The notes under the pieces were generated by a model that saw only the letters and a program-made list of their open reading frames with translations, searched no databases and was not told the DNA's origin. From positions 1 through 54,510 of IMG/VR virus record IMGVR_UViG_3300036770_001615: DNA of 54,510 bases; one strand, written 5' to 3'. The DNA comes from a virus (Duplodnaviria; Caudoviricetes). Positions 877 to 11,975 of this stretch are shown here, one piece after another; positions within the stretch are counted from its first letter, which is position 1; each line of letters opens with the position of its first letter. A program made the translations under genes and the position numbers.

Positions 877-877
877 T

Positions 878-954: not shown

Positions 955-956
955 AA

Positions 957-1118: not shown

Positions 1119-1127
1119 CATTTCTAT

Positions 1128-1203: not shown

Positions 1204-1208
1204 AATAT

Positions 1209-1284: not shown

Positions 1285-1297
1285 AATACAATTTAAC

Positions 1298-1477: not shown

Positions 1478-1550
1478 GCTGTTAGTGATAATGGGAGCAC
1501 AGCGGGTTTGCACCTCGCAAGTAAGAGTTCGATTCTCTTACGGTCCACCA
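1476..1550 (+). tRNA. tRNA-Ala(TGC)
   Basis: G3:U70, TTTGCAC loop, CCA. Confidence 0.9.
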
Positions 1551-1556
1551 AAATTT

Positions 1557-1633
1557 GCCCTGGTGATGGAACAGGTATACGTGTCTGACTCAAAATCAGA
1601 ATTTTGTGGGTTCGAATCCCACCTAGGGCACCA
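1557..1633 (+). tRNA. tRNA-Leu(CAA), short variable loop
   Basis: TCTGA-CTCAAAA-TCAGA, 5-nt V loop, CCA. Confidence 0.9.
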
Positions 1634-1634
1634 C

Positions 1635-1663
1635 TTGACATTAATCACGATATCAAGTAGAAT
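1635..1663 (+). promoter_or_regulatory. sigma70 promoter
   Basis: TTGACA-17-TAGAAT. Confidence 0.85.
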
Positions 1664-1672
1664 ACATTTAAT

Positions 1673-1747
1673 TGGGGATTCGCCAAGCGGTAAGGCATCG
1701 GATTTTGATTCCGACATTCCCAGGTTCGATCCCTGGATCCCCAGCCA
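1673..1747 (+). tRNA. tRNA-Gln(TTG)
   Basis: T1:A72, TTTTGAT loop, CCA. Confidence 0.95.
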
Positions 1748-1760
1748 AAGGAGATATATC

Positions 1761-1940
1761 ATGAAAACAGTAACATTTGAAAGTGTATATAATAAAGAGA
1801 AGTTTACCTGTAACGGTAAGTCCTTGCAGGATGTTAGAGTTATTGATGGTATAGAATACCTACGTGTCTTTAAGTTCGGGACACACCGTGAGGTATTAGT
1901 TCGTAAAGATACTCTAAAAAGGGTATCTAACAAACGGTGA
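1761..1940 (+). CDS. Hypothetical protein (59 aa)
   Basis: AAGGAG SD before ATG 1761. Confidence 0.7.
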   Translation: MKTVTFESVYNKEKFTCNGKSLQDVRVIDGIEYLRVFKFGTHREVLVRKDTLKRVSNKR

Positions 1941-1966
1941 TTAAATAAAAGAAGATAGGAGTTATC

Positions 1967-2530
1967 ATGGCTGTTTTGGCATTGGACATCTCAGGAATTC
2001 CTAGGCAATGGATTTCCTTTGATGACGCTATTGTGTATCATGCAAAGGAACTTGTTGCATGGAGTCTTGGAGATGTAGTAGCAAGGTATCGTGGTGGAAT
2101 TCAAAACGACGGTACTGAAAGTTATTTAGAAACCCCAAGCATTATTGCAATTAGAGGTCATGGATTTGACCCTGCGCGGCACAATAGAGTTAGTCTAACC
2201 AATCGAACATTGTTCGGTCGAGACAGGCATGTTTGTGCATACTGCGGAGGTCACTTCCCTAACTATCATCACCTAAGTCGAGACCACATCATGCCTAAAA
2301 GCAAGGGTGGTACCGATACTTGGATGAACGTTGTGACCGCTTGTAAGGAATGCAACGGTAAAAAAGGTAATAAGACATTGAAGGAAGCACGTATGGAACT
2401 GATTTACGTACCCTACGTGCCCAATCATTATGAAAATATGATTCTACAAAACCGCACGATTCTTGCGGATCAAATGGAGTACTTGCTAGCAGGTGTTCCA
2501 AAACATAGTAGAATTTTAAAAATGTCTTGA
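1967..2530 (+). CDS. HNH endonuclease (McrA-like)
   Basis: RDRHVCAYCG..DHIMPKSKGG...NVVTACKECNGKK. Confidence 0.9.
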   Translation: MAVLALDISGIPRQWISFDDAIVYHAKELVAWSLGDVVARYRGGIQNDGTESYLETPSIIAIRGHGFDPARHNRVSLTNRTLFGRDRHVCAYCGGHFPNYHHLSRDHIMPKSKGGTDTWMNVVTACKECNGKKGNKTLKEARMELIYVPYVPNHYENMILQNRTILADQMEYLLAGVPKHSRILKMS

Positions 2531-2570
2531 CAATAAACTATTTATCCTGTATACTACGGGGTAAATAGTT
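2527..2570 (+). promoter_or_regulatory. sigma70 promoter with overlapping hairpin and TAAATA
   Basis: TTGACA-17-TATACT. Inverted repeat 2536-2550/2556-2570. Confidence 0.8.
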
Positions 2571-2579
2571 ATGAATTAT

Positions 2580-2655
<76 letters not shown>

Positions 2656-2666
2656 ATTTAAAATAT

Positions 2667-2742
2667 GCTGGCTTAGCTCAGTTGGTAGAGCATCTGCCTT
2701 GTAAGCAGGAGGTCGTCAGTTCGAATCCGACAGTCAGCACCA
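2667..2742 (+). tRNA. tRNA-Thr(TGT)
   Basis: CTTGTAA loop, CCA. Confidence 0.95.
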
Positions 2743-2766
2743 TACAACACACAGGAGTTACAGTGT

Positions 2767-3003
2767 ATGAAGAAGTTAGTTATTGTAGGATTGTTTGCCA
2801 TTTCTGCTAATGCAATGGCCGTTGATAGAGTTTTAAAGTTTGATACGGATTTAGATGGCAAAGTTTCATACAAGGAACTTACTTTATCATGCGATGTTTC
2901 AAAAAGTTTATTTGACCGAGCAGATAAAGATGGCGATGGGTATTTGACAAACGTAGAAATGCGTACTGCAAAGAATTACCTATTCGTTACTTGCAGTAAG
3001 TAA
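2767..3003 (+). CDS. Secreted EF-hand protein
   Basis: Signal peptide (..ANAMA); Ca-binding loops DTDLDGKVSYKE and DKDGDGYLTNVE. Confidence 0.8.
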   Translation: MKKLVIVGLFAISANAMAVDRVLKFDTDLDGKVSYKELTLSCDVSKSLFDRADKDGDGYLTNVEMRTAKNYLFVTCSK

Positions 3004-3010
3004 GAATTAT

Positions 3011-3087
3011 CTGCCCGTAGCTCAGTTGGATAGAGCAATGGCCTTCTAAGCCATCGGTCGGACGTTCGAATCGTCTCGGGCAGGCCA
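3011..3087 (+). tRNA. tRNA-Arg(TCT)
   Basis: ATGGC-CTTCTAA-GCCAT, CCA. Confidence 0.95.
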
Positions 3088-3097
3088 AATTGGAGAT

Positions 3098-3607
3098 ATG
3101 ATGGATATAACTGATTATGTAATTGAATTACCCTTCTTAAAATATGATAAGCAGGCATTAATTGATTACATGAAAGGTAAGGGTCCTTGGGTCAGTGAAG
3201 GATATGCTAATAAGTATCTACGACCTAAAGACAGTATAGACCTATTTTCAGATATCTATAAACAGATCCCTGAATTTGAAATTGACATTGGAAGAGTATT
3301 TTTTGCTGAATTAGAACCGTTTCAGTTTTTGCATCCACATAAGGATTTATATAGAAAAGCATCTATAAACATTCCTTTGATTGGGGATTTCACAAAAACG
3401 CCGGTTACCTTTTATAGTGAGAAATCTACCAAAAAAGAACACATTTTGTATAAACATTGCTATAATGATGTTGCAACAGTAATTAATACTGAAGTATATC
3501 ATGGAGTAGTAAATACAACGAATGAAATTAGATATATATTTTGTTTGAGTGTATATCCTGATTGGAATACAATTAAACAAGTATATGAAAAGTATAACGG
3601 GGTGTAG
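3098..3607 (+). CDS. Cupin/2OG-Fe(II) oxygenase-like protein
   Basis: HxD (HKD) ... H (YHGV) ... R. The stop lies inside tRNA-Pro. Confidence 0.7.
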   Translation: MMDITDYVIELPFLKYDKQALIDYMKGKGPWVSEGYANKYLRPKDSIDLFSDIYKQIPEFEIDIGRVFFAELEPFQFLHPHKDLYRKASINIPLIGDFTKTPVTFYSEKSTKKEHILYKHCYNDVATVINTEVYHGVVNTTNEIRYIFCLSVYPDWNTIKQVYEKYNGV

Positions 3608-3675
3608 CGCAGTCTGGTTAGCGCATCTGCTTTGGGAGCAGAGGGTCGTGAGTTCGAATCCCACCACCCCGACCA
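3598..3675 (+). tRNA. tRNA-Pro(TGG)
   Basis: TCTGC-TTTGGGA-GCAGA, CCA. Confidence 0.95.
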
Positions 3676-3680
3676 TTATT

Positions 3681-3755
3681 GGAAGTTTAGCTCAGCGGTA
3701 GAGCAACGCCCTTACAAGGCGAAGGTCATAGGTTCAATCCCTATAACTTCCACCA
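3681..3755 (+). tRNA. tRNA-Val(TAC)
   Basis: CTTACAA loop, CCA. Confidence 0.95.
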
Positions 3756-3839
3756 ATTCTTTGATTGTCACAAAAATTTAATACAATTTTTTACAGGTAA
3801 TAATAAATACGAATATTATAATACATAAAAGGTAGCGAC

Positions 3840-4274
3840 ATGTTAAACATTATCAATAGTATCAATGATCCGCTACTAAGTTACATCAAAGATGATCCAG
3901 TGAGACCCGAAATTCCTGTAGAGTTTCGGGTTTCTAATTTTAGATTTGTTGGCGCCTTAGTAGAGGATAAACCACAAGCAATAGTTTGCGTAAGCCTACA
4001 TGACTTTATACCCGAATCAGTAGAAGATTTATCTAGAGAATCAGTATCTCCTGATACAGCAATCTTCTATACGATTTGGAGTTATAAAGCAGGAGCGGCT
4101 AAAGATTTGCTATTCTCTACAGTTAAAGAGATCCAACGTATGTTTCCTAACATCACACGTTTTGTAACACTAAGTCCTAAGACTGAAATGGCAAAACGAT
4201 TCCATTTGCGTAATGGAGCGTCGGTGTTGAAGGAAAATCTCACAACGGTGAATTACGAATATAAAGTCAGTTGA
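3840..4274 (+). CDS. Hypothetical protein, possible GNAT-like fold
   Basis: AIFYTIWSYKAGA...FVTLSP..A..FHLRNGA. TAAATA at 3804. Confidence 0.6.
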   Translation: MLNIINSINDPLLSYIKDDPVRPEIPVEFRVSNFRFVGALVEDKPQAIVCVSLHDFIPESVEDLSRESVSPDTAIFYTIWSYKAGAAKDLLFSTVKEIQRMFPNITRFVTLSPKTEMAKRFHLRNGASVLKENLTTVNYEYKVS

Positions 4275-4299
4275 CAAATATTCCTAGTTCGTATATAAT
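4271..4299 (+). promoter_or_regulatory. Consensus sigma70 promoter
   Basis: TTGACA-17-TATAAT. Confidence 0.9.
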
Positions 4300-4316
4300 A
4301 CATTCTTTCTCGCAGT

Positions 4317-4391
4317 ATCTCGGTGGTGTCAACGGCAGCATGACGGTCTCCAAAACCGCTGGTGGGGGTTCGAATCCCTCCCGGGATGCCA
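4317..4391 (+). tRNA. tRNA-Trp(CCA)
   Basis: CTCCAAA loop, CCA. Confidence 0.93.
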
Positions 4392-4404
4392 AAAACTGAT
4401 TGTA

Positions 4405-4452
4405 AATCAAGTACTTACGAGGCTTGACAAATAATCAGAGTTGTAGTAGAAT
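4405..4452 (+). promoter_or_regulatory. IHF site plus sigma70 promoter
   Basis: AATCAAGTACTTA (WATCAANNNNTTR), then TTGACA-17-TAGAAT. Confidence 0.8.
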
Positions 4453-4461
4453 GCTTATATT

Positions 4462-4491
4462 CGCTGAGAAATCAGCAACGTTCTTTAAAAA
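4462..4491 (+). promoter_or_regulatory. rrn-type boxB-boxA antitermination signal, copy 1
   Basis: GCTGA-GAAA-TCAGC hairpin plus GTTCTTTAAAAA; identical 30 bp at 7654. Confidence 0.75.
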
Positions 4492-4509
4492 CTGAAGTGA
4501 AAATTTTTT

Positions 4510-4596
4510 GCCCGGGTGGTGAAATAGGTAGACACAAGAGACTTAAAATCTCTCGCCCGAAAGGGCGTGCCGGTTCGATTCCGGCCCCGGGCACCA
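4510..4596 (+). tRNA. tRNA-Leu(TAA)
   Basis: CTTAAAA loop, long V arm, CCA. Confidence 0.95.
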
Positions 4597-4743
4597 TATA
4601 AAAGTGTTATCAAGGTATCGTGTATGGACGCATACACTATTCGGGTCCAATCGGCCGGAGACGGATCCTGAGATAACTGCATCGGCTTTGTCAAGTTAGC
4701 TACTTTACGACTAAATTTGCACGATAGCACTTTTATATGGTGT
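4591..4743 (+). ncRNA. Stem-closed RNA cassette B
   Basis: GCACCATATAAAAGTGTTATC / GATAGCACTTTTATATGGTGT. Internal hairpins GTGTATG/CATACAC and GGGTCC/GGATCC. Confidence 0.65.
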
Positions 4744-4751
4744 TATAAAAA

Positions 4752-4845
4752 AAGGGGGAGTGGCGGCTATGTCTCAACGTCATGGTCATCGCCTTTGTGT
4801 TTACTCTTAAACAACAGCATATCCTCATTCGTAGGTGTGCCCCTT
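4752..4845 (+). ncRNA. Possible small structured RNA
   Basis: Two imperfect hairpins (GGCGGCTATG/CATGGTCATCGCC; GCATATCCT/AGGTGTGC) in a GC-richer spacer with no ORF. Confidence 0.35.
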
Positions 4846-4852
4846 ATCAATT

Positions 4853-4929
4853 GCCTCTGTAGCTCAATTGGTTAGAGCAGTGGACTCATAATCCATTGGT
4901 TACAGGTTCGAGTCCTGTCGGAGGCACCA
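4853..4929 (+). tRNA. tRNA(CAT), probably Ile2 (lysidine type)
   Basis: GTGGA-CTCATAA-TCCAT, Ile2-like body; separate Met and fMet genes are present. Confidence 0.85.
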
Positions 4930-4934
4930 TTTTT

Positions 4935-5025
4935 GGAAGTGTGGCAGAGTTGGTTTAATGCACTAGTCTTGAAAACTAGCGATTCAGCAATGGGTCCGTG
5001 AGTTCGAATCTCACCGCTTCCACCA
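4935..5025 (+). tRNA. tRNA-Ser(TGA)
   Basis: CTTGAAA loop, long V arm, CCA. Confidence 0.95.
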
Positions 5026-5031
5026 GTATTA

Positions 5032-5123
5032 GGAGAGGTGCCCGAGAGGCCGAAGGGAGCGGTTTGCTAAACCGTCGACTCACGAAAGTGGGTCCGTGGG
5101 TTCGAATCCCACTCTCTCCACCA
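5032..5123 (+). tRNA. tRNA-Ser(GCT)
   Basis: TTGCTAA loop, long V arm, CCA. Confidence 0.95.
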
Positions 5124-5138
5124 GTTTAAGGAAATGTA

Positions 5139-5507
5139 ATGTTAAAACAATTTTACATTGATGACAGTTATATCACTGATGTTACTGTAAGGACTGAACA
5201 TGATTTTATTAAAGATCGTAGTAATCCTACACACGATGACCTAATAAAAATCCTTAAAGGATATGACAGAGGTCTTAGTATTAGTAACAAAGACCATGAT
5301 GAGTTTACAAAATTGCGTAATCAACTTGAAGAATTGGGTTATATTGTAACTCAGCGTGGTTGGTGGAACGGTGATAGAGTATTGAAGTCATTCAAGTTAA
5401 ATGAGTGGACATTTAGAAAGAATCATAAGTTTCCTAGTGCGGCGGCAATGCGTACAAGTATTGACTGTGCTAGGAAGTTTGGATGGAAAAGTATTAGTAA
5501 TTTATAA
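5139..5507 (+). CDS. Hypothetical protein
   Basis: 122-aa ORF with AAGGA SD between tRNAs. Confidence 0.7.
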   Translation: MLKQFYIDDSYITDVTVRTEHDFIKDRSNPTHDDLIKILKGYDRGLSISNKDHDEFTKLRNQLEELGYIVTQRGWWNGDRVLKSFKLNEWTFRKNHKFPSAAAMRTSIDCARKFGWKSISNL

Positions 5508-5508
5508 T

Positions 5509-5586
5509 GTATCGGTGGCAGAGTGGTCAAATGCAACGGATTGCAAATCCGTAAAGTCGTCAGTTCGAATCTGACTCGGTACTCCA
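5509..5586 (+). tRNA. tRNA-Cys(GCA)
   Basis: TTGCAAA loop, U73, CCA. Confidence 0.95.
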
Positions 5587-5592
5587 AACATT

Positions 5593-5667
5593 GCCTGTTT
5601 AGCTCAGTGGTAGAGCAACGTCTTGATAAGGCGTAGGTCCGTGGATCGTTCCCACGAACAGGCACCA
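5593..5667 (+). tRNA. tRNA-Ile(GAT), atypical T-loop
   Basis: TTGATAA loop, T-loop ATCGTTC, CCA. Confidence 0.9.
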
Positions 5668-5675
5668 AATAAGGC

Positions 5676-5704
5676 TTGACAAATAAATCAAGTTAGTATA
5701 GAAT
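5676..5704 (+). promoter_or_regulatory. sigma70 promoter
   Basis: TTGACA-17-TAGAAT. Confidence 0.85.
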
Positions 5705-5717
5705 ACATGTATTGATT

Positions 5718-5813
5718 AGGAGATATGACATGAAACGAGGTAAACGCTAGTGTCATCTTAGTTCCAATGTACGAACTAAGGTGGCACGTTAAACAAACTT
5801 AGTACAAACATTG
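5718..5813 (+). other. SD + micro-ORF MKRGKR-amber followed by a 15-bp hairpin/pseudoknot
   Basis: AGGAG 5718, ATG 5730, TAG 5748-5750. Stem 5750-5764/5773-5787; loop CAATGT complements ACATTG at 5808-5813. Confidence 0.5.
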
Positions 5814-5888
5814 GGACGTTAGCTCAGTTGGTAGAGCAGTAGACTTTTAATCTATTGGTCGTGGGTTCGAACCCCGCACGTCCTACCA
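5813..5888 (+). tRNA. tRNA-Lys(TTT)
   Basis: GTAGA-CTTTTAA-TCTAT, CCA. Confidence 0.95.
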
Positions 5889-6127
5889 TATTAAAGTATA
5901 TTGAAGGTTACTCACACCGTTAGGGGTGAACGAAGGCTGATTACGAGCCGGATACCCATGAAGCAGGAGGGACTTAGAGTATGGCGAGACACCATTGAGC
6001 CAAAGGGTAAAGTCTAATTTAAACTCCAGGGATGCGACGGGTTAAACAGTGGGGAATAATGAGAAAGCAACACGATATGTGGTGTTGAGTGTTAGCGGTA
6101 CTTCCTTTAGTATATTTTAATATGGTA
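5884..6127 (+). ncRNA. Stem-closed RNA cassette C (~196-nt cargo)
   Basis: 24-bp stem 5884-5907/6104-6127 with 3 G-U pairs; several internal hairpins. Confidence 0.7.
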
Positions 6128-6131
6128 TAAT

Positions 6132-6206
6132 AGTAGAGTAGCATAACGGTAGTGCAACACCTTCATACGGTGCGCTGTGTGGGTTCGACTCCCTCCTCTA
6201 CTACCA
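6132..6206 (+). tRNA. tRNA-Met(CAT), elongator
   Basis: TTCATAC loop, paired 1:72, CCA. Confidence 0.88.
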
Positions 6207-6217
6207 AAAGATTTTTT

Positions 6218-6292
6218 GCTCGGTTCGTCTATTGGTTAGGACGCTGGCCTTTCACGCCGGAAAGAGGGGTTCAATTCCCCTACCGAGTACCA
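6218..6292 (+). tRNA. tRNA-Glu(TTC)
   Basis: CTTTCAC loop, CCA. Confidence 0.95.
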
Positions 6293-6298
6293 AACAAT

Positions 6299-6386
6299 GG
6301 GTGTTGCCCCTGCCGGCGGACTGTAAATCCGTTACTCTGAGAGGTAGGAAGTCGAGTTCGTGGAGCGTTACCATCAACACCCACCA
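6299..6386 (+). tRNA. Non-canonical tRNA-Tyr(GTA): 8-bp acceptor, 4-bp T stem, no D arm
   Basis: GGGTGTTG/CAACACCC plus A-CCA; GCGGA-CTGTAAA-TCCGT; GTGG-AGCGTTA-CCAT. Confidence 0.75.
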
Positions 6387-6438
6387 AACACACAAAAGAG
6401 ATAAATATATCTCTTTTGACACAGAGAGGAAACAGAGT

Positions 6439-6525
6439 ATGGAATTTGTAGGAATGAACATCCTAGCCGTATTAGTTATGTCACTAGTGATTATCATTAG
6501 TGATATAGTTAACTTGCTAGATTAA
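6439..6525 (+). CDS. Small hydrophobic peptide (28 aa)
   Basis: GAGGA SD, single TM segment, TAAATA hairpin upstream. Confidence 0.5.
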   Translation: MEFVGMNILAVLVMSLVIIISDIVNLLD

Positions 6526-6531
6526 GAATAA

Positions 6532-6608
6532 GGCCCGTTAGCGCAGTTGGTTAGCGCACATGCCTGTCACGCATGAGGTCACCGGTTCGAGCCCGGTACG
6601 GGTCGCCA
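6532..6608 (+). tRNA. tRNA-Asp(GTC)
   Basis: CATGC-CTGTCAC-GCATG, CCA. Confidence 0.95.
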
Positions 6609-6681
6609 ATAAAAACTAGTTCTTTACTGTCTATTAGACACTAAATATTAGTGTCTGAAATAAGGCATAAAGGAGAAAACA

Positions 6682-6840
6682 ATGGATATGGACGTTATAG
6701 TTCCCATAGTTATAGTTTTAGTAGTAGCCGGATTCTTCTTTTGGAAGAAAAAAGGCAATAGTGCTGATGCACCAGTTGATGGTGAAAATGTCGGTGGTGG
6801 TGGGAAACCCACTGATACTAAAAATCAGCAATTGAAATAA
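6682..6840 (+). CDS. Small membrane protein (52 aa)
   Basis: AAGGAG SD; MDMDVIVPIVIVLVVAGFFFWKKKG... (not in ORF track). Confidence 0.7.
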   Translation: MDMDVIVPIVIVLVVAGFFFWKKKGNSADAPVDGENVGGGGKPTDTKNQQLK

Positions 6841-6843
6841 GCA

Positions 6844-7048
6844 GACCCCGGTTTACACTTTTACGTTATATAAAGTGGGCAATTGTCGTAGCCATACGGA
6901 CACGGTAAGATTGTTATAGACCGCAAGGCTCACTATATGGGCGACTTGAGACACACAATCGGGCAGAAGCAAAACTGACCTAGATGCAAATGTTGACGGA
7001 CAGGGTAACAACTCAGTTCGGGGCTAAATGGGATTAGTGGCCGAACAT
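6844..7048 (+). ncRNA. Structured RNA (~200 nt), unknown family
   Basis: Non-coding, GC-richer. CCCCGG/TCGGGG ends, CACTTT/AAAGTG, GATTGT/ACAATC, TATAG-ACC-GCAA-GG..CTATA hairpins. Confidence 0.6.
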
Positions 7049-7061
7049 TTTAATATTACAC

Positions 7062-7601
7062 ATGAAACTTAACGACTACATTTTTGTTAGCAAACTTTTT
7101 GATTCACAAGAATGCGATGAAATAATAAACAAAACCAATCAGTATAAATGGCGCCAACATAAATGGAATGCCTCTAATACAAAGGTTAAGTCAGTAGAGG
7201 AAATCGATAACATTCTAGTATGTAATATTGATCCTTTACTTGAAAGTAAAATATCTCCTAAGTTATTGAACGTATTTGGAAAATATAGTATCCTATTTGG
7301 ACCACATAGTGTTCCAATTCAGTTGACTAATCAATGGGATAATATTAGAATAAACAAATATACAGAAGGTGTCGGTATGAGAAATCATATTGATCACGGT
7401 ATAGATAGGGAACATCCTGTACTTACAATCATTGCGTTATTGAATGACGAATTCACAGGTGGTAATACTTTTATCTTAAATGAGGAAGTATTGCTTAAGA
7501 AAGGTGACTGTGTTATCTTTCCTAGTAATTTTATGTATCCACATGAAATTAAACCTGTAGTGAATGGTACAAGATATTCACTAACTACTTGGGCTTATTA
7601 A
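7062..7601 (+). CDS. 2OG-Fe(II) oxygenase (prolyl-4-hydroxylase-like)
   Basis: HIDH...FTGG...FPSNFMYPHEIKPV..GTRYS. Confidence 0.9.
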   Translation: MKLNDYIFVSKLFDSQECDEIINKTNQYKWRQHKWNASNTKVKSVEEIDNILVCNIDPLLESKISPKLLNVFGKYSILFGPHSVPIQLTNQWDNIRINKYTEGVGMRNHIDHGIDREHPVLTIIALLNDEFTGGNTFILNEEVLLKKGDCVIFPSNFMYPHEIKPVVNGTRYSLTTWAY

Positions 7602-7612
7602 CCCAAAACTGT

Positions 7613-7641
7613 TTGACAAAAAATCAAAAGTAATATACAAT
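7613..7641 (+). promoter_or_regulatory. sigma70 promoter of the ncRNA operon
   Basis: TTGACA-17-TACAAT. Confidence 0.85.
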
Positions 7642-7653
7642 ACGTTGTATTGA

Positions 7654-7683
7654 CGCTGAGAAATCAGCAACGTTCTTTAAAAA
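7654..7683 (+). promoter_or_regulatory. rrn-type boxB-boxA signal, copy 2
   Basis: Identical to 4462-4491. Confidence 0.75.
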
Positions 7684-7698
7684 TTATTAGTATAAAGG

Positions 7699-7930
7699 GA
7701 AGTCTTTATACACATGACAATTAAATGTCAGCAAATGAAAGTCACTATTGTTAGTAGCCGGCCAGCCAAAGCAATAGTAAGCAGTGGGGGGCGCAAAACC
7801 CTAGCAAAACCTAGACACACTGGATGAGTAACTGAAGTGACGTACCGAGTCCTGCCCGGGTTTAATTACACAGGTGAATGGTGCTAATAACGATGGTAGC
7901 ACATTTTAGTTGTCAGTTGTATAAAGATTT
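7699..7930 (+). ncRNA. ~230-nt self-closed structured RNA or domain
   Basis: GAAGTCTTTATAC..TGACAATTAAA pairs with TTTAGTTGTCA..GTATAAAGATTTC; internal hairpins. Confidence 0.65.
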
Positions 7931-7934
7931 CAAA

Positions 7935-8805
7935 GATTGGGGGCATAGCCTCGTTAGAATAAGTGTAGCGATACACCCAAAGCAGAATCCGCCTACAGGA
8001 CTGCACCAGCAATGGTTCATCTATGCAAGCCTGCTCACACCCGTGAGGGTGCGATCACTGATAAGACCGGTGGTTGTAACAATGAAGCAAGTGTGTTGGA
8101 AAGAATGTCTGTTTAAGTCCCCGCAAGGGTAAGACAGGCAGACAGAGAGTAACAGGTGGTGCTGACCTCAACACAAAACCAACTTGTCAATTGGTATGAG
8201 AAAGGGTAGTATATATTGTCCGAAGGGTCGCTCCTAAGGGCGTGTATGCAGTATGAGTGGTTAATGGGTATTGATTACGGGTCAATATACATAAATCGCA
8301 AAATACGTCTGAGTAGTCCGCGAGACAAAAGGAACGTGGTGTGTTGTATTATGTAATCCAAAAGATTATGTAGCAACTGAGGCAGCACATCATAGTAGGT
8401 TCAGTTATAGCACAACGGTAGTGCAACTCCATTTATCCAGGAGTCGGCTGAAGGTTCAAATCCTTCTAACGATTATAAAAACGCAAAGTCTGCCTCGGTT
8501 GTATGTGAAAAGCATCTAACTCTCAGGCCGCAAGGTAACTGAGACTGACGTAACTCGCAAGGTGAAATCAGTTTATGCTAGAAGATTCGTAACGGTTTAG
8601 CGACTGTGAATGGCTCGCAAGGTCAACGGGTAATAAAGCGTAGAGTAGCATATAACGTCAAGTCTACTGCATGACTTTAAACTGCGATGCTGGTAATAGA
8701 CGTAGATACCGCAAGGGTTTACGTGGATATCGGAAGAAAGTATTCTCGCAAGGAATACAATAATGTCCGAGGTATTACTGGCTAACGTGTAATCTCAGCG
8801 TTAGC
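7935..8805 (+). ncRNA. Large ornate RNA, GOLLD-like (boundaries approximate)
   Basis: ~870 nt with no credible ORF; dense GNRA-capped hairpins (CGCAAGG x6); terminal GCTAACG-TGTAATCTCAG-CGTTAGC hairpin; phage tRNA-array context. Confidence 0.75.
8401..8473 (+). ncRNA. tRNA-like domain embedded in the GOLLD-like RNA
   Basis: D arm GCAC-AACGGTA-GTGC, ACTCC-(9-nt loop)-GGAGT, T arm GAAGG-TTCAAAT-CCTTC; no CCA. Confidence 0.75.
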
Positions 8806-8806
8806 A

Positions 8807-8872
8807 TTATTCTAAAACACATTCGCAACCACAAGGTAGTGAAATGTACGAGGGGAGTGTGTTTTAGAATAA
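8807..8872 (+). ncRNA. Stem-closed RNA cassette D
   Basis: TTATTCTAAAACACATTC / GAGTGTGTTTTAGAATAA; shares AAAACACATTC/GAGTGTGTTT with cassette A. Confidence 0.6.
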
Positions 8873-8880
8873 AAAGTTTT

Positions 8881-9140
8881 GGTAGTAGCCGTAAGGTGAA
8901 CTACCCGGAGACAAGAAAGAGATTAGGACTGACGAAACTTATTATTGGACTTTTTATCCAATAATGATCAATACGGCAATACGTCTTGAAAAACGTATCG
9001 TGCTTATGTGATCTAGTCTAAACGGTTTTATCTAACCTTCTTGTACTTTGCTGACTAGGAATATGTAGGCCTCTGTGCTTTGTTAAATGTCACTTGCAGG
9101 TTGCATATTGTAATGTTGGTTACTTACTTTTTTGGCTCCG
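8881..9140 (+). ncRNA. Structured RNA with 7-nt periodic repeats
   Basis: Several hairpins; CGGAG/CTCCG closing pair; TG at 9074, 9081, 9088, 9095, 9102, 9109. Confidence 0.6.
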
Positions 9141-9170
9141 TCACTATTCATTAACATAAAAGGTATTAAA

Positions 9171-9734
9171 ATGGAAATCACACTTCGTAAAGCAAATGCA
9201 CTTCAAAACAACATCAACGATATGTTGAAGTCAATTCAGGTTGCTGATTCAGTTAACCTTAACGAGTTCCAAGATGCAGAAGCCGTAATTGGAACTAAAG
9301 CAGTAGAGGCTACAAAACAATTTCAGCGCCAAGTGGCACTCACCAAAGCATTGTACGATATTCGTACAGAAGTGGCTAATGCTAACCACTTCTCACGTAT
9401 CACAACCATGTTGACTCAAGTTGCAGAACTTGAAAAGTTGATTGGTTTCAATCAAAAAATGGCAGAGCGTAAAGTTCGCCTAGAGGCTGGGGTCATTCGT
9501 GGCAAGTTGGACAAAATTCGCACTGAGGGTCGTTCATTGATCTATGATCGTTACAATGAAATAGAAACTGGACTAACCACTGAAGCAGAGGTTCAGTCAT
9601 ACAAGGATACTGTGGCAAAACTTAAGCGTGAGAAGCAGGCTTTGCAGGATCAAATCTTAGAAGCCAACGTTGGCACTAAGGTAAATCTTAGCGAAACTAC
9701 TGCAAATGTATTGCGTACTGAAGGTTTGCTATAA
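9171..9734 (+). CDS. Alpha-helical coiled-coil protein (DIP1984/DUF6847-like architecture)
   Basis: MEITLRKANALQ...IRTEVANAN...LQDQILEANVGTKV. AAGG SD. Family assignment is inference. Confidence 0.65.
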   Translation: MEITLRKANALQNNINDMLKSIQVADSVNLNEFQDAEAVIGTKAVEATKQFQRQVALTKALYDIRTEVANANHFSRITTMLTQVAELEKLIGFNQKMAERKVRLEAGVIRGKLDKIRTEGRSLIYDRYNEIETGLTTEAEVQSYKDTVAKLKREKQALQDQILEANVGTKVNLSETTANVLRTEGLL

Positions 9735-9741
9735 ATAATAT

Positions 9742-9816
9742 CGTGGGGTGGAGAAGAGGAAACTCACCAGTCTCATAAGCTGGAGATCGCAGGTTCGAGT
9801 CCTGCCCCCGCAACCA
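9742..9816 (+). tRNA. tRNA-fMet-like (CAT)
   Basis: C1xA72 mismatch, CTCATAA loop, CCA; lacks the 3 G-C anticodon-stem pairs. Confidence 0.85.
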
Positions 9817-9817
9817 G

Positions 9818-9892
9818 TCCCACGTAGTTCAAAGGATAGAATAAGACACTCCTAAGGTCAAGATATCAGTTCGATTCTGGTCGTGGGAGCCA
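9818..9892 (+). tRNA. tRNA-Arg(CCT), weak anticodon stem
   Basis: TCCCACG/CGTGGGA, CTCCTAA loop, A20; only 3 WC pairs in the anticodon stem. Confidence 0.75.
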
Positions 9893-9900
9893 AAGTATAT

Positions 9901-9978
9901 GCGGGTAGATTGTGGCAAGGGGCGCCCAGCAGTCTTCCAAACTGATAATGCGGAGTTCGACTCTCCCTACCCGCTCCA
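9901..9978 (+). tRNA. tRNA-Gly(TCC), atypical D region
   Basis: GCGGGTA/TACCCGC, U73, CTTCCAA loop; extra nt before the D stem. Confidence 0.8.
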
Positions 9979-9999
9979 TTTCATGTTGATAAATAAAAC

Positions 10000-10614
10000 A
10001 TGGTAAATTATTTTCATAAAATCAATAAGTTTTATATTGATCATAAAAAATTATATGATGAATGGTACAGTGTGGCTACTAAACATGATATGTTTGAGAG
10101 GACACACCACTTTGTATCCCGCAGAACGTTAGACTATTCACCTTCTATTCCCGTATATTATAAATTATTGATTAATTACCCTACATCAATGGATCAAAAC
10201 ATTGATCCAGTATGGTTAGATAGATCGGAAGATAACGACACTGGTAATGATACTACTTTTTCAATCGACAACATCAATATAAATTTTAAAAATTCATATA
10301 CTGAAACTGTAGTAAAACATATAGATAAGTTTATAACGTCGAAATACAAATCATATAAAACAACAGTAGTAAAATATGCGGTGTTAAGACCTAATTCACT
10401 TATTAATACTCATGTAGATAAAAGGTCTATACCTAGATTTTTCTTAACCGTAAACGCCCCTCAGGGATGTTTTATGGAAGTATGTGGTGATAGGCATTCA
10501 TTAAGTGATACGGGAGCATTATTTAAAATGATATGTAATGCACCGCATAGTCCTATTAACGAAAGTGATCAATTTCGTGTTATGATAATTTTTGATGTTG
10601 CTCCCGCAACATAA
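10000..10614 (+). CDS. Asp/Asn beta-hydroxylase-like oxygenase
   Basis: LRPNSLINTHVD...PHSPINESDQFRVMIIFD. Confidence 0.7.
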   Translation: MVNYFHKINKFYIDHKKLYDEWYSVATKHDMFERTHHFVSRRTLDYSPSIPVYYKLLINYPTSMDQNIDPVWLDRSEDNDTGNDTTFSIDNININFKNSYTETVVKHIDKFITSKYKSYKTTVVKYAVLRPNSLINTHVDKRSIPRFFLTVNAPQGCFMEVCGDRHSLSDTGALFKMICNAPHSPINESDQFRVMIIFDVAPAT

Positions 10615-10628
10615 ATATTACAGAATAC

Positions 10629-10704
10629 GGGCCTGTAGCTCAGTTGGGAGAGCGCCAGCTTTGCAAGCTGGATGTCGCAAGTTCGATCCTTGTCAGGTCC
10701 ACCA
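10629..10704 (+). tRNA. tRNA-Ala(TGC), second copy
   Basis: G3:U70, TTTGCAA loop, CCA. Confidence 0.95.
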
Positions 10705-10710
10705 ATTTTT

Positions 10711-11046
10711 ATGAATATTGAATACAGTATTTTAAATGCTTTGTCATTAGTAGAAATTTATAAACAATATTCTATTCCATGGCTTGATATAACGGATGAT
10801 CCATTATTAAACATAAAATCTTTTCCTAAAGATATAAAGTTTCTAGCAATAGAACAACTGGATAAAGTTCAAATGATATATCAGGATAGATTAGATAAAA
10901 CACAAGAGCAATTAATCACAAACATTAGAAAAGAGTTATGTGAACACATAGATTATTGTGATCCAAGAGCAATAAAGTTTGCGATGTTGTCACTGGATAA
11001 TGATTCCGAGTTATATAATATTTTAGAGCAATACAATACGCTATAA
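10711..11046 (+). CDS. Hypothetical protein
   Basis: ATG 10711 after the tRNA. Confidence 0.55.
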   Translation: MNIEYSILNALSLVEIYKQYSIPWLDITDDPLLNIKSFPKDIKFLAIEQLDKVQMIYQDRLDKTQEQLITNIRKELCEHIDYCDPRAIKFAMLSLDNDSELYNILEQYNTL

Positions 11047-11068
11047 ATATTTCTAAAGGAGTTCACAT

Positions 11069-11200
11069 ATGGCAAAAAGCGCAGGATCTAAGATCAATTC
11101 AGTTGTTAAAAGAACAAAGCAAGGCGGCAAAGTAAAGACTAGTAGCCTTAATAAAACTGAAAAACGTAACTTTAAAAAGTATCGAGGTCAAGGTAAGTGA
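11069..11200 (+). CDS. Small basic protein ending KKYRGQGK (43 aa)
   Basis: TATAAATA 11042, AAGGAG SD; motif common in T4-like phages. Confidence 0.7.
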   Translation: MAKSAGSKINSVVKRTKQGGKVKTSSLNKTEKRNFKKYRGQGK

Positions 11201-11397
11201 GCGACGGTGGTAAGGGTAGCAGTCCTCGCCCATTTAGTGTAGATAGAAAAACTTTTGAAAACAATTGGGATGCTATCTTTGCTAAGAAAAAAGAGGAATC
11301 AACAGAACAAAGCGGGTATAATTCAGGGGTAGAATGTTTGCTTGCCAAGCAAAATGTCGTCGGTTCGAATCCGACTACCCGCTCCAATGATAGATGA
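11197..11397 (+). CDS. Small protein (GKGSxPRP..NWDAIF) whose frame runs through tRNA-Gly
   Basis: GTGA overlap with the upstream stop, ATGA overlap with the downstream start. Confidence 0.6.
   Translation: MSDGGKGSSPRPFSVDRKTFENNWDAIFAKKKEESTEQSGYNSGVECLLAKQNVVGSNPTTRSNDR
11312..11386 (+). tRNA. tRNA-Gly(GCC)
   Basis: TTTGC-TTGCCAA-GCAAA, U73, CCA. Confidence 0.95.
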
Positions 11398-11975
11398 ACT
11401 ATCAATCTCTGATTGAAAGAAATGTATTTTCGCTAATGGATCCATTAGCAGTTCAATGGTTAAAGAATCATTGTTCTACACTTTCATCTGGAGATATAGT
11501 AGTTGAGTTAGGCACTTTTTTAGGTGGTACTATAAAAAGTTTAGCCGAATCTAATCCAAATATTATTTTTCATACTATAGACATTAATGATGCTGAATGG
11601 TGGCATGAAAGAAATTATATCTCAAACGTAAGAAAAGTATCTGGTAATAATTTAATAAATTTTAACAAAGAAGATTATTTGAAAATTCAAGATTTGCATC
11701 TTAATCATTTAATCAATGTTGTTAGACATACGGGTTCTAGTTTAACTTTAACTATACCAAACATATCATTATTAATCAGTGATAGTTCGCATAATGAAGA
11801 ACTAACATATCAGGAACTCAATCATTTTTGGCCTCTAATTAAAAAGGGTGGATCAATAATTGGAGATGATTTTAATAATATGCCGGAAGTTAAACGTGCA
11901 TTCATCAGATTTATAAGAGAAAACAATCTATCTTATTCAAGAATTTATAGTAATCAAATAAGAATTGTAAAGTAA
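11394..11975 (+). CDS. Class I SAM-dependent methyltransferase
   Basis: VVELGTFLGGT...DSSH...GGSIIGDD. Confidence 0.8.
   Translation: MNYQSLIERNVFSLMDPLAVQWLKNHCSTLSSGDIVVELGTFLGGTIKSLAESNPNIIFHTIDINDAEWWHERNYISNVRKVSGNNLINFNKEDYLKIQDLHLNHLINVVRHTGSSLTLTIPNISLLISDSSHNEELTYQELNHFWPLIKKGGSIIGDDFNNMPEVKRAFIRFIRENNLSYSRIYSNQIRIVK

What the first reader, a model, noticed from the sequence alone, without database searches (positions are those of the whole stretch)
8881..9734. RNA with exact 7-nt periodicity paired with a coiled-coil protein gene
Seen: CTGTGCT-TTGTTAA-ATGTCAC-TTGCAGG-TTGCATA-TTGTAAT gives TGY every 7 nt six times (9074-9109), plus two more 7-spaced TGY at 9042 and 9049. Intervening bases vary, so this is not slippage. 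The tract lies in a ~260-nt folded RNA (CGGAG..AAGAAAG pairs with CTTTTTT..CTCCG) that ends 30 nt before an all-helical protein resembling the DIP1984/DUF6847 layout. Established analogies: TRAP binds periodic NAG repeats, and RSV nucleoprotein binds 7 nt per subunit. Inference: the protein oligomerises as a ring or filament on the heptads. This would be an undescribed RNA-templated assembly, an autoregulatory element or a toxin-antitoxin-like pair.
Basis: partly seen in the sequence, partly recalled or inferred. Interest (0 to 1): 0.85.

Follow-up and report, generated by a model that had tools for sequence, protein, structure and literature searches.

The report
New phage RNA with 7-nt UG ruler
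Large phages carry an undescribed, folded RNA of about 260 bases in which eight UG pairs sit exactly seven bases apart, always beside the gene of one small helical protein, which suggests an RNA-protein machine of unknown job that can now be tested in Caulobacter phages.

Summary
Window 8881-9141 (+) is a structured RNA. On 28 homologs 92.8% of cells pair, against 37-52% when the partners are slid, and 28 of 34 pairs show compensatory change. No Rfam 15 family matches at E<=10.

Eight UG dinucleotides are unchanged in 80-81 of 81 distinct homologs that are 48-83% identical to the window. They start at 9042, 9049, 9074, 9081, 9088, 9095, 9102 and 9109. The bases between them drift about as fast as 4-fold sites of the neighbouring gene, and no indel occurs inside a tract.

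The RNA and the 187-aa helical protein (9171-9734; no Pfam, PHROG, NCBIfam or PADLOC family) are linked both ways. 76 of 80 protein loci hold the RNA. 77 of 82 RNA copies hold the protein on the same strand. All misses lie at contig or stretch ends. Order varies: RNA upstream 66, downstream 18.

Caulobacter and Brevundimonas jumbo phages have the same pair with the same UG spacing.

Best reading (0.45): a ribonucleoprotein in which an ordered protein oligomer reads the UG ruler. Binding is inferred, not shown. GOLLD RNA, an initiator-like tRNA and an RpoZ-like gene are frequent neighbours.

The parts
8881..9141 (+). Whole structured RNA, about 260 nt: a 5' hairpin P0 and a P1-closed multi-helix core
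   Evidence: An nhmmer profile hits 8905-9140 (E 2e-41). 34 pairs are 92.8% paired in 28 homologs, and 0 of 500 shuffles reach this. No Rfam family matches at E<=10.
8881..8905 (+). P0, a 5' hairpin (GGTAGT...ACTACC, inner GUAA loop) directly before P1
   Evidence: The 38 nt before P1 fold to -6 kcal/mol or lower in 77 of 80 homologs with different sequences. Mean is -9.6 against -4.5 for shuffles.
8906..8919 (+). P1, 5' strand; pairs with 9127-9140
   Evidence: 10 of the 10 tested pairs change on both sides. Top covarying pairs are 8919:9127 and 8917:9129.
9127..9140 (+). P1, 3' strand
8925..8933 (+). P2, 5' strand (within the conserved GAUGAGGAUAGAC-type motif); pairs with 9115-9123
   Evidence: 8 pairs, 99.1% paired, 4 with changes on both sides.
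9115..9123 (+). P2, 3' strand
8941..8965 (+). P3 hairpin
   Evidence: Covarying pairs 8944:8962 and 8946:8960. The window's minimum-energy fold shows it too. Weaker support: 79.6% paired for the two pairs tested.
8980..8997 (+). P4 hairpin (ACGU...ACGU around a CUUGAAAA loop)
   Evidence: 4 pairs, all with changes on both sides, 79.2% paired. Covariation.
9002..9070 (+). P5 arm: P5a 9002-9007 with 9065-9070, P5b 9013-9016 with 9055-9058. Its loop carries heptads Ha and Hb.
   Evidence: 98-99% paired, 8 of 10 pairs with changes on both sides. Helical runs.
9041..9054 (+). Heptads Ha and Hb (UG at 9042-43 and 9049-50)
   Evidence: T and G are unchanged in 81 of 81 homologs.
9073..9114 (+). Heptads H1-H6 (UG at 9074, 9081, 9088, 9095, 9102, 9109). 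Consensus unit (Y)UG(Y)NNN. No covariation-supported pairing partner was found.
   Evidence: UG is unchanged in 80-81 of 81, and the spacers carry 0-0.7 bits. There are no gaps inside a tract. 67 of 81 homologs have a 13-29 nt insert between H4 and H5, which the window lacks. No pairing partner was found.
9171..9734 (+). Partner protein gene: 187 aa, helical, no known family
   Evidence: 521 relatives among 643 candidates. 1548 representatives at E<=1e-3. AlphaFold2 pLDDT 86.5. No Pfam, PHROG, NCBIfam or PADLOC family. Linked to the RNA.
9742..9816 (+). tRNA(CAU) with an unpaired C1:A72, initiator-like, 8 nt after the protein's stop; a frequent neighbour
   Evidence: Aragorn. 26 of the 32 tRNAs that lie within 60 nt after the gene are tRNA(CAU), and all 26 have an unpaired 1:72.
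8336..8801 (+). GOLLD RNA (Rfam RF02032) with tRNA-Ile(UAU) embedded at 8401-8474. A neighbour, not part of the element.
   Evidence: 213.6 bits, E 4e-59. Relatives such as L002 have the RNA and protein without GOLLD.
7613..7641 (+). Promoter-like site TTGACA-17-TACAAT upstream of GOLLD. It could drive GOLLD, the RNA, the protein and the tRNAs.
   Evidence: 11 of 12 matches. This is a consensus match only.

Best explanation
Window 8881-9141 encodes a stand-alone structured RNA of a family not in Rfam. Window 9171-9734 encodes its dedicated partner protein. Together they form a two-gene module of large (jumbo) phages.

The RNA scaffold (P0-P5) presents three unpaired tracts holding 2 + 4 + 2 units of (Y)UG(Y)NNN. 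Only the UG and the exact 7-nt spacing are under selection.

Most likely mechanism: copies of the helical protein bind side by side, one per heptad or one dimer per two. Each reads a UG, so the RNA acts as a ruler that sets the size and shape of a ribonucleoprotein.

What that particle does is unknown. Its neighbours (tRNA arrays, an initiator-like tRNA, GOLLD RNA, an RpoZ-like gene) point to host translation or transcription take-over.

Shown: the RNA structure, the invariant UG ruler, and the two-way genetic linkage across deep divergence.
Inferred: direct binding, the oligomer, and the function.
For: (1) Structure. 34 pairs are 92.8% paired, against 37-52% when slid. 28 pairs show compensatory change. 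The covariation score is 0.60 against at most 0.14 when slid, and 0 of 500 shuffles reach the observed values. RNAalifold independently gave 30 pairs, 24 of them compensatory.

(2) Ruler. The eight UG are unchanged in 80-81 of 81 distinct RNAs that are 48-83% identical to the window. No gaps occur inside a tract. Information autocorrelation at lag 7 is 0.71. Spacer divergence tracks 4-fold sites of the adjacent gene: 0.38 vs 0.41, 0.57 vs 0.54, 0.62 vs 0.68. Spacing, not spacer sequence, is therefore what is constrained. No covarying partner was found for the tracts.

(3) Linkage.
- 76 of 80 protein-found loci have the RNA on the same strand. The 4 misses are cut by contig ends.
- A protein-blind RNA pattern found 81 loci, and all 81 are hit by the RNA profile. 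77 of the 82 RNA copies have the protein on the same strand. The other 5 have under 715 nt of upstream flank.
- Order varies: RNA upstream 66, downstream 18. tRNAs lie between the two in 7 pairs.
- One contig has two whole RNA-protein-tRNA(CAU) modules that have diverged (proteins 67% identical, RNAs 79%).

(4) Deep conservation. Profile A1 finds CcrColossus gp272 (E 4.6e-18). The unannotated 284-313 nt after the gene in CcrColossus, CcrPW, Kikimora and Domovoi keeps UG at 7-nt spacing. Five TG pairs are invariant alignment columns. Six stand in a row in CcrColossus, against 0 of 200 shuffles. That gap also folds strongly (z -4.97).

(5) Own transcript.
- 34 of 78 RNAs have a -10-like box just upstream, and 13 of 78 abut a tRNA 3' end.
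- One 206-nt contig of an RNA run (X19) covers 8899-9093 with 1 mismatch. This is weak support.

(6) Precedent. HutP reads XAG triplets separated by 4-nt spacers, three on each face of a hexamer (passages of PMC2425495).

(7) The protein has 11 conserved Arg/Lys (R6 K7 R53 R65 K89 R103 K112 K115 R121 K152 K155), each in at least 90% of 37 sequences.
Against: - No binding data exist, and no RNA-protein fold could be run.
- The protein is not basic: median pI 6.7, net charge -3 to +3 in 37 members.
- It has no recognisable RNA-binding domain. Its fold matches are generic helical bundles.
- Genomic linkage can reflect shared regulation or a shared pathway rather than contact.
- The tracts are split 2 + 4 + 2. 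In 67 of 81 RNAs a 13-29 nt insert breaks the linear register between H4 and H5, and the H4-H5 distance modulo 7 is scattered. A single continuous filament therefore does not fit all members.
- The invariant UG could instead serve the RNA's tertiary or quaternary structure.
- All loci are related phages, so counts of loci are not independent events.
Confidence: 0.45

Rival explanations
1. RNA-only role. The invariant UG and fixed spacing build the RNA's own tertiary fold or a homo-oligomer, as in GOLLD, ROOL and manA RNA cages. The neighbouring protein works in the same pathway without reading the heptads.
For: - The element often sits beside GOLLD: on the same strand upstream in 18 of 82 RNA copies.
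- GOLLD and ROOL form protein-free cages and have no known protein partner (passages of 10.1101/2024.12.08.627333).
- RNAs under 200 nt can also form cages (passages of 10.64898/2026.07.01.735769).
- Many heptads contain self-complementary UGCA or UGUACA.
- The protein is neutral and has no RNA-binding domain.
Against: - No covariation-supported partner for the tracts was found in 81 sequences.
- Neutral spacers of fixed length are unusual for RNA-RNA contacts.
- The near-obligate two-way linkage to one protein, and duplication of the whole module, are left unexplained.
Confidence: 0.2
2. The UG ruler binds something other than the neighbour protein. Candidates are a host RNA-binding protein (a sponge), the ribosome or RNA polymerase, or the anticodon CAU of the adjacent initiator-like tRNA, since NUG are start-codon-like triplets.
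For: - 26 of the 32 tRNAs that lie within 60 nt after the protein gene are tRNA(CAU) with an unpaired 1:72, and 31 more loci have such a tRNA within 3 kb.
- 8 RNAs begin right after a tRNA(CAU) 3' end.
- The base before UG can be U, C, A or G, all of which give NUG.
- An RpoZ/Rpb6 homolog lies between the RNA and the protein in 13 of 81 RNAs.
Against: - AUG, the best partner for CAU, is rare. U or C precedes UG in most units.
- CcrColossus has no tRNA within the 9 kb examined, yet keeps the RNA and the protein.
- 32 of 96 loci have no tRNA(CAU) in the fetched flank.
- The tRNA and RpoZ links may be synteny within clades.
Confidence: 0.13
3. Cis-acting leader. The RNA is a 5' UTR that the protein binds to repress its own translation, and it has no further function.
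For: - The RNA is directly upstream in most pairs, with a gap of 100 nt or less in 52 of 84.
- In the window P1 ends 30 nt before the ATG, with no terminator-like site between.
Against: - The RNA is downstream of the gene in 18 of 84 pairs and in all four cultured phages examined. In 7 pairs tRNAs lie between the two.
- In 13 RNAs an RpoZ-like gene lies between the RNA and the protein.
- A scaffold of about 260 nt with six helices and eight sites is elaborate for autoregulation.
Confidence: 0.1
4. Noncontiguous guide, like VIPR. The protein holds the conserved UG anchors, and the 3-4 variable bases of each unit together read a target nucleic acid.
For: - VIPR vrRNAs alternate a conserved GGY with a variable NN. 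A phage-encoded protein binds them, and a conserved structured tail follows the repeats (Results section of 10.64898/2026.04.26.720920).
- Here too conserved anchors alternate with low-information positions inside a conserved scaffold.
Against: - The spacers are shared across whole clades. For example, CUGUCUA at H2 recurs in about 20 distinct RNAs.
- The spacers diverge at about the neutral rate, not faster. There are few close pairs to judge from: 3, 3 and 8 in the three lowest divergence bins.
- The protein model is helical, not a RAMP/RRM fold.
- There is one RNA per protein, not an array.
- No target search was made.
Confidence: 0.05
5. Type III toxin-antitoxin-like pair: an RNA antitoxin that neutralises a toxic protein.
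For: An RNA gene next to a small protein gene, mostly RNA first.
Against: - No tandem repeat array was found.
- No PADLOC family matches 4 members.
- The module is found in lytic-type jumbo phage contigs. Only 2 of 185,579 species genomes hold it, both on MAG contigs.
- The order is variable.
Confidence: 0.02

Closest known systems
HutP with the hut terminator RNA (Bacillus subtilis)
   Same: A short motif is repeated with 4-nt spacers, which gives a 7-nt register. The spacers are free to vary. The sites come in separate clusters joined by a linker, and an oligomer reads them (passages of PMC2425495).
   Different: - The motif is XAG, not UG, and there are 3 + 3 sites, not 2 + 4 + 2.
- The HutP sites lie in a cis-acting terminator leader, not in a 260-nt trans scaffold.
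- The protein here has no Pfam match of any kind and its model is helical.
- The hosts here are phages.
TRAP with the trp leader; CsrA with the CsrB/RsmZ sponges (recalled knowledge)
   Same: Many copies of a 2-3 nt motif on one RNA are bound by a multimeric protein.
   Different: - TRAP spacing is 2-3 nt around a ring of 11 subunits.
- CsrB sites sit in hairpin loops at irregular spacing.
- Neither RNA nor protein is related to these by any search made here.
VIPR (Vipr RAMP protein with vrRNA), preprint 10.64898/2026.04.26.720920
   Same: It is phage-encoded. Conserved triplets alternate with variable bases in a strict period. A conserved structured part flanks the repeats. RNA and protein are encoded side by side.
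   Different: - The period is 5 (YNNGG), not 7.
- There are 9-16 contiguous repeats.
- The protein is a RAMP/RRM fold, whereas this one is helical.
- vrRNAs come in arrays with hypervariable NN, whereas here there is one RNA with clade-conserved spacers.
- The preprint's supplementary figures on 'related consensus' repeats could not be seen.
GOLLD RNA (Rfam RF02032)
   Same: A large ornate phage RNA of tRNA islands. It is the immediate upstream neighbour in the window (8336-8801) and in 18 of 82 related RNA copies.
   Different: A separate element. The GOLLD model ends at 8801. The new RNA occurs without GOLLD: in L002 and in at least 19 RNA copies with 3 kb or more of upstream flank. It has its own promoter-like start in many loci. 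No protein partner is known for GOLLD.
3kdq (Corynebacterium diphtheriae protein of unknown function) and DUF6847 (PF20935)
   Same: 3kdq is the best solved-fold match over nearly the whole protein (VIA Z 11.1, 142 aligned; Foldseek E 9e-3). A 149-aa viral cluster with PF20935 on 19% of its members is an ESM Atlas neighbour (score 0.91, TM 0.64/0.77).
   Different: There is no sequence-level match. The Z score is below the tool's caution level for helical bundles. The functions of both are unknown, so the match explains nothing.

Membership tests
GOLLD RNA (RF02032): is the finding a part of it? | Match to the Rfam covariance model | tested here: not met
   The GOLLD match covers 8336-8801 only. 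At E<=10 nothing but two chance miRNA rows matches within 8780-9200, and both lie at 8802-8878.
GOLLD RNA (RF02032): is the finding a part of it? | Always contiguous with GOLLD | tested here: not met
   L001-L004 show only tRNAs at Rfam gathering score, yet L002 keeps the RNA and the protein. GOLLD was found upstream in 18 of 82 RNA copies, and 19 copies with 3 kb or more of upstream flank lack it (single-sequence nhmmer, which may under-detect).
Any Rfam 15 family | Covariance-model match at E<=10 | tested here: not met
   Window 8780-9200, L002 (E<=1) and CcrColossus L170 4700-5150 gave no relevant match.
DUF6847 (PF20935) / DIP1984-like proteins | Match to the Pfam model | tested here: not met
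   No PF20935 row came back for the window's protein at E<=0.1. It is not among the 25 most-matched families for 37 members at E<=1. There were 0 matches at E<=1 in five phage records that carry the protein.
DUF6847 (PF20935) / DIP1984-like proteins | Same fold | tested here: inconclusive
   3kdq gave Foldseek E 9e-3 and VIA Z 11.1 at rmsd 6.9. The Atlas cluster with 19% PF20935 gave TM 0.64/0.77. That 3kdq is DIP1984 is recalled, not checked.
HutP/TRAP-type periodic-triplet RNA binding | RNA with three or more short invariant motifs at fixed spacing and free spacers | tested here: met
   Eight UG at 7-nt spacing, with spacers of 0-0.7 bits, no gaps inside a tract, and a neutral-like spacer rate.
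HutP/TRAP-type periodic-triplet RNA binding | Protein homologous to HutP or TRAP | tested here: not met
   No Pfam family at all matched. No such chain appears among the fold matches listed.
HutP/TRAP-type periodic-triplet RNA binding | Protein forms a defined oligomer that contacts each motif | not testable with these tools
   No RNA-protein co-folding is offered here. The self-association job is reported under Tried and rejected.
VIPR | RAMP (RRM core, G-loop, thumb) protein | tested here: not met
   The AlphaFold2 model is helices with three short strands, and no RRM appears. No RAMP is among the listed fold matches.
VIPR | YNNGG 5-nt tandem repeats | tested here: not met
   The unit is (Y)UG(Y)NNN with period 7.
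VIPR | Hypervariable spacer bases that specify targets | tested here: inconclusive
   The spacers diverge at about the 4-fold-site rate and are shared within clades. No target search was made.
Type III toxin-antitoxin (ToxIN-like) | Tandem array of RNA repeats of about 36 nt upstream of the toxin | tested here: not met
   Tandem Repeats Finder found nothing at 8700-9300 with minimum score 30.
Type III toxin-antitoxin (ToxIN-like) | Toxin of a known defence family | tested here: inconclusive
   0 PADLOC families for 4 members at E<=0.1. The library dates from 2023.

The most novel reading that the evidence does not exclude
The module is a new kind of phage ribonucleoprotein that uses a 7-nt register as a code. 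A helical protein oligomer, unrelated to RAMPs, clamps the invariant UG anchors. It thereby displays the 3-4 intervening bases of eight units as a gapped reading head for another nucleic acid: a VIPR-like noncontiguous guide that arose independently, or a multi-site platform for tRNAs.
Probability: 0.07. Interest if true: 0.95.

Novelty: new variant of a known kind. Interest (0 to 1): 0.8.

Why it matters
- It adds a widespread, strongly supported structured RNA family to the few large phage RNAs known, namely GOLLD and ROOL. The partner protein family has 1548 cluster representatives.
- Unlike GOLLD and ROOL, it comes with an obvious candidate protein partner and a simple mutable feature: eight UG at a fixed 7-nt pitch.
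- It sits in the same tRNA-island neighbourhood as GOLLD, whose function is still unknown, so solving one may shed light on the other.
- The pair also exists in cultured Caulobacter phages (CcrColossus, CcrPW) and seven Brevundimonas jumbo phages. The question 'what does a phage do with a ruler-like RNA?' can therefore be tested directly with ordinary genetics, pull-downs and cryo-EM.
- If the protein does polymerise on the ruler, this would be a new fold and a new motif for periodic RNA recognition.

Tried and rejected
- Self-association of the protein (complex prediction, 4 copies with alignment A1): no verdict. The score was 0.61, but one control scored 0.51. It counts neither for nor against.

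- Pairing partners for the heptads: mutual information and a scan for helical runs on 81 sequences recovered only P1-P5 and the variable hairpin. Apparent pairings of UUG with CYRG columns repeat for every heptad, and I read them as artefacts of the repeat. A possible 8976:9078 contact is only 59% canonical. My hand-read H1:H5 pairing was not supported.

- The single-sequence fold of the window's RNA (z -3.1) pairs the heptad tract with itself. Covariation does not support that.

- Family searches for the protein:
  - Pfam, PHROGs, NCBIfam and PADLOC gave nothing.
  - A profile search of PDB sequences gave nothing below E 0.05.
  - PF20935 gave no hit in five records.

- GenBank phages:
  - tblastn with the window's own protein found no match. 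Homologs were reached only through the fold search and profile A1.
  - blastn of window 7600-9800 found only a GOLLD-like piece in Sinorhizobium phage Phosso and a tRNA.

- RNA runs: the contigs laid cover the GOLLD part in 4 of 4 RNA runs. Only one low-depth contig (X19) covers 8899-9093. No contig covers 9116-9307 or 9500-9800. Contigs cannot show absence, ends or strand, so this is at most a weak hint of transcription.

- Guide hypothesis: I made no database scan for gapped targets. The skip rule is unknown, and clade-shared spacers lower the prior.

- The second 187-aa ORF at 1967-2530 is an HNH endonuclease, not a paralog.

- Literature: eight full-text searches found no description of this RNA or protein.
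  - Searches used GOLLD, ROOL, tRNA array and jumbo phage terms.
  - One search used DIP1984, one search used 3KDQ and one search used CcrColossus.
  -, on HutP, was for the precedent.
  - The phiCbK genomics paper does not mention gp272 or this gap (find mode).
The VIPR preprint's supplementary figures on repeat variants and types could bear on the VIPR comparison.

No earlier findings were used.
Full report
**What is at the coordinates.** The window is a 54.5-kb phage contig and is the whole assembly held. Its first 11.4 kb carry 29 tRNA genes. Rfam places a GOLLD RNA at 8336-8801 (213.6 bits, E 4e-59), with tRNA-Ile(UAU) embedded at 8401-8474.

The finding lies just 3' of that. TGY starts at 9074, 9081, 9088, 9095, 9102 and 9109, and also at 9042 and 9049. 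The latter two are in a different register. The protein gene starts at ATG 9171 and ends at 9734. A tRNA(CAU) follows at 9742-9816.

**Is the period more than chance?** Within the window alone the answer is modest.
- Among 160 motifs and nine periods, 11.5% of 200 dinucleotide-preserving shuffles hold some run of six. For period 7 alone the figure is 0.5%.
- TG-N5 six times occurs once, and in 0 of 100 shuffles.

Conservation settles it. I collected relatives in two independent ways.

*From the protein.* 253 of 264 candidate stretches in viral contigs encode a relative, and 80 were kept.

*From the RNA.* A protein-blind pattern taken from two conserved RNA segments found 81 stretches, and the RNA profile hits all 81.

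81 distinct full-length RNAs, 48-83% identical to the window's, were aligned. The eight TG columns are unchanged in 80-81 of 81, and 79 of 81 RNAs keep all eight. The three or four bases between them carry 0-0.7 bits, and no sequence has a gap inside a tract. The per-column information has an autocorrelation of 0.71 at lag 7 inside 9071-9114, against 0.09 in the rest of the RNA.

The spacer bases diverge about as fast as 4-fold degenerate sites of the adjacent protein gene: 0.38 vs 0.41, 0.57 vs 0.54 and 0.62 vs 0.68. Only 3, 3 and 8 pairs fall in the three closest bins. Selection therefore acts on UG and on the spacing, not on the spacer sequence. Tandem Repeats Finder sees no repeat.

**The RNA.** RNAalifold on 28 sequences gave 30 pairs, 24 of them with compensatory change. 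I added the P4 hairpin to that structure and counted again.
- 34 pairs are 92.8% paired, against 37-52% when the 3' partners are slid.
- 28 pairs have changes on both sides.
- The covariation score is 0.60, against at most 0.14 when slid.
- 0 of 500 shuffles reach any observed measure.

Mutual information on 81 sequences recovers the same helices:

| Helix | 5' side | 3' side |
|---|---|---|
| P1 | 8906-8919 | 9127-9140 |
| P2 | 8925-8933 | 9115-9123 |
| P3 | hairpin 8941-8965 | |
| P4 | hairpin 8980-8997 | |
| P5a | 9002-9007 | 9065-9070 |
| P5b | 9013-9016 | 9055-9058 |

A 5' hairpin P0 (8881-8905) precedes P1 in 77 of 80 homologs.

Heptads Ha and Hb lie in the P5 loop. H1-H4 follow P5, and H5-H6 precede the 3' strand of P2. 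67 of 81 RNAs have a 13-29 nt insert between H4 and H5, which the window lacks. Covariation in the insert columns suggests a hairpin. This is why all six are in phase in the window. No pairing partner for the tracts was found.

No Rfam 15 family matches the RNA in the window at E<=10, in L002 at E<=1, or in CcrColossus at E<=10.

Many copies have a -10 or TTGACA-type promoter just upstream: 34 of 78 by my regular expression, and several of the 31 'neither' rows show one by eye. 13 of 78 start right after a tRNA 3' end, 8 of them tRNA(CAU). The RNA therefore looks like its own gene. One 206-nt contig of an RNA run (X19) matches 8899-9093 with one mismatch. This is weak evidence only.

**The protein.** It has 187 aa. 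There are 521 relatives among 643 candidates in one search and 1548 cluster representatives at E<=1e-3 in the exhaustive one, nearly all 184-191 aa long. No Pfam, PHROG, NCBIfam or PADLOC family matches.

The AlphaFold2 model is mostly helical, with pLDDT 86.5. The best solved match is 3kdq, a C. diphtheriae protein of unknown function. It is weak: Foldseek E 9e-3, and VIA Z 11.1 over 142 residues at rmsd 6.9. An ESM Atlas neighbour cluster carries PF20935 on 19% of its members, but the PF20935 model itself finds nothing.

The family is near neutral, with median pI 6.7. It has 11 conserved Arg/Lys.

**Linkage.**
- 76 of 80 protein loci hold the RNA on the same strand. The four misses (L024, L043, L059, L067) are cut by contig ends.
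- 77 of 82 RNA copies hold the protein on the same strand. The five others have under 715 nt of upstream flank.
- Among 91 distinct RNA sequences, the RNA is upstream of the gene in 66 (52 with a gap of 100 nt or less) and downstream in 18. In 7 of those 18, one or two tRNAs lie between. For 7 RNA sequences my strict start motif found no gene.
- Five large records (259-374 kb, two at least 90% complete) each have one copy.
- One contig has two diverged RNA-protein-tRNA(CAU) modules.
- Only 2 of 185,579 species genomes hold the protein, both on short MAG contigs.

**Cultured phages.** Fold search in BFVD found Caulobacter phage CcrColossus (E 3.6e-10, TM 0.83/0.79) among others. Profile A1 then hit its gp272 (E 4.6e-18). 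tblastn with gp272 found 11 records: CcrColossus, CcrPW and seven Brevundimonas jumbo phages.

In the four I examined, an unannotated gap of 284-313 nt follows the gene.
- The gap holds UG at exact 7-nt spacing. Five TG pairs are invariant alignment columns.
- Six stand in a row in CcrColossus, against 0 of 200 shuffles.
- There is a long closing helix in which I read compensatory changes from the alignment.
- The gap folds strongly (z -4.97).
- No tRNA lies within that 9 kb, so the tRNA-island setting is common but not required.

**Neighbours.**
- GOLLD lies upstream on the same strand in 18 of 82 RNA copies and is absent in at least 19 with ample flank.
- Of the 32 tRNAs within 60 nt after the protein gene, 26 are tRNA(CAU), all with an unpaired 1:72. 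By established knowledge that is the mark of bacterial initiator tRNA.
- In 13 of 81 RNAs an RpoZ/Rpb6 homolog sits between the RNA and the protein. 5 of 5 tested pass Pfam's cut-off.

**Interpretation.** Invariant dinucleotides, fixed spacing, neutral spacers, no RNA pairing partner and a dedicated neighbour protein make up the signature of an array of sites read by a multimeric binder.

HutP is the nearest precedent: XAG triplets with 4-nt spacers, three on each face of a hexamer. VIPR shows that phages use strictly periodic RNAs with a partner protein.

I therefore favour a ribonucleoprotein in which the protein reads the UG ruler (0.45). The steps from linkage to contact, and from contact to an ordered oligomer, are inference. 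The self-association job gave no verdict, and the protein is not basic.

The rivals are an RNA-only structural role (0.2), another binder such as initiator tRNA or a host factor (0.13), a pure cis leader (0.1), a VIPR-like guide (0.05) and a toxin-antitoxin pair (0.02).

**Novelty.** I found no description in Rfam, in the protein libraries, or in eight literature searches. The GOLLD cryo-EM paper names no protein partner for GOLLD and says that none has been identified for ROOL (passages). I rate it a new variant of a known kind, namely periodic-motif RNA with a protein partner. Both the RNA family and the protein family are new.

Noticed in passing
window 8336-8801 (perhaps from about 7976): A GOLLD RNA (Rfam, 213.6 bits) with tRNA-Ile(UAU) embedded at 8401-8474. 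Contigs of three RNA runs begin at 7976, and one ends at 8823, which suggests the full RNA is about 850 nt.
   Followed up: partly
window 9742-9816; 96 related loci: The tRNA right after the partner protein gene is tRNA(CAU) with an unpaired 1:72 (initiator-like) in 26 of the 32 cases where a tRNA lies within 60 nt. 31 more loci have such a tRNA within 3 kb.
   Followed up: partly
L033 2274-2501, L143 1613-1855, L065 2256-2471, L112 260-496 (-), L136 5252-5467 (-): A 70-82 aa homolog of the RNA polymerase omega subunit (PF01192, 5 of 5 above the cut-off) lies between the new RNA and the partner protein in 13 of 81 RNAs. This is a phage-encoded RpoZ.
   Followed up: partly
L122 (reverse strand): 605-1526 and 3135-4058 in reoriented coordinates: Two complete diverged modules, RNA then protein then tRNA-Met, on one contig. 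The proteins are 67% identical and the RNAs 79%.
   Followed up: yes
window 8805-8874: A long hairpin (TTCTAAAACACA...TGTGTTTTAGAA) lies between GOLLD and the new RNA. A similar stretch follows GOLLD directly in L075 and L083 and matches in L029 (nhmmer E 0.02-0.03), so it may belong to GOLLD's 3' end.
   Followed up: no
window 7613-7641: A near-consensus promoter-like site, TTGACA-17-TACAAT (11 of 12), upstream of GOLLD. L002 has TTGACA-17-TATACT at 2579-2607, upstream of its copy of the new RNA.
   Followed up: no
window 1-11400: 29 tRNA genes, with an HNH endonuclease gene (1967-2530) inside the array. 2OG-Fe(II) oxygenase (7062-7601) and Asp/Arg hydroxylase-like (10000-10614) genes flank the module.
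   Followed up: partly
PV764938.1 33507-33735 (Sinorhizobium phage Phosso, 469 kb): An unannotated stretch 70% identical to part of the window's GOLLD region (query 711-944 of window 7600-9800). It is probably a GOLLD RNA in a cultured jumbo phage.
   Followed up: no
BFVD matches to the protein model: Weaker fold matches to proteins of giant viruses (Catovirus E 7e-6, Yasminevirus E 3.5e-5), and matches to Vibrio phage Vp_R1 and Erwinia phage pEa_SNUABM_47. I did not check whether these have a UG ruler nearby.
   Followed up: no
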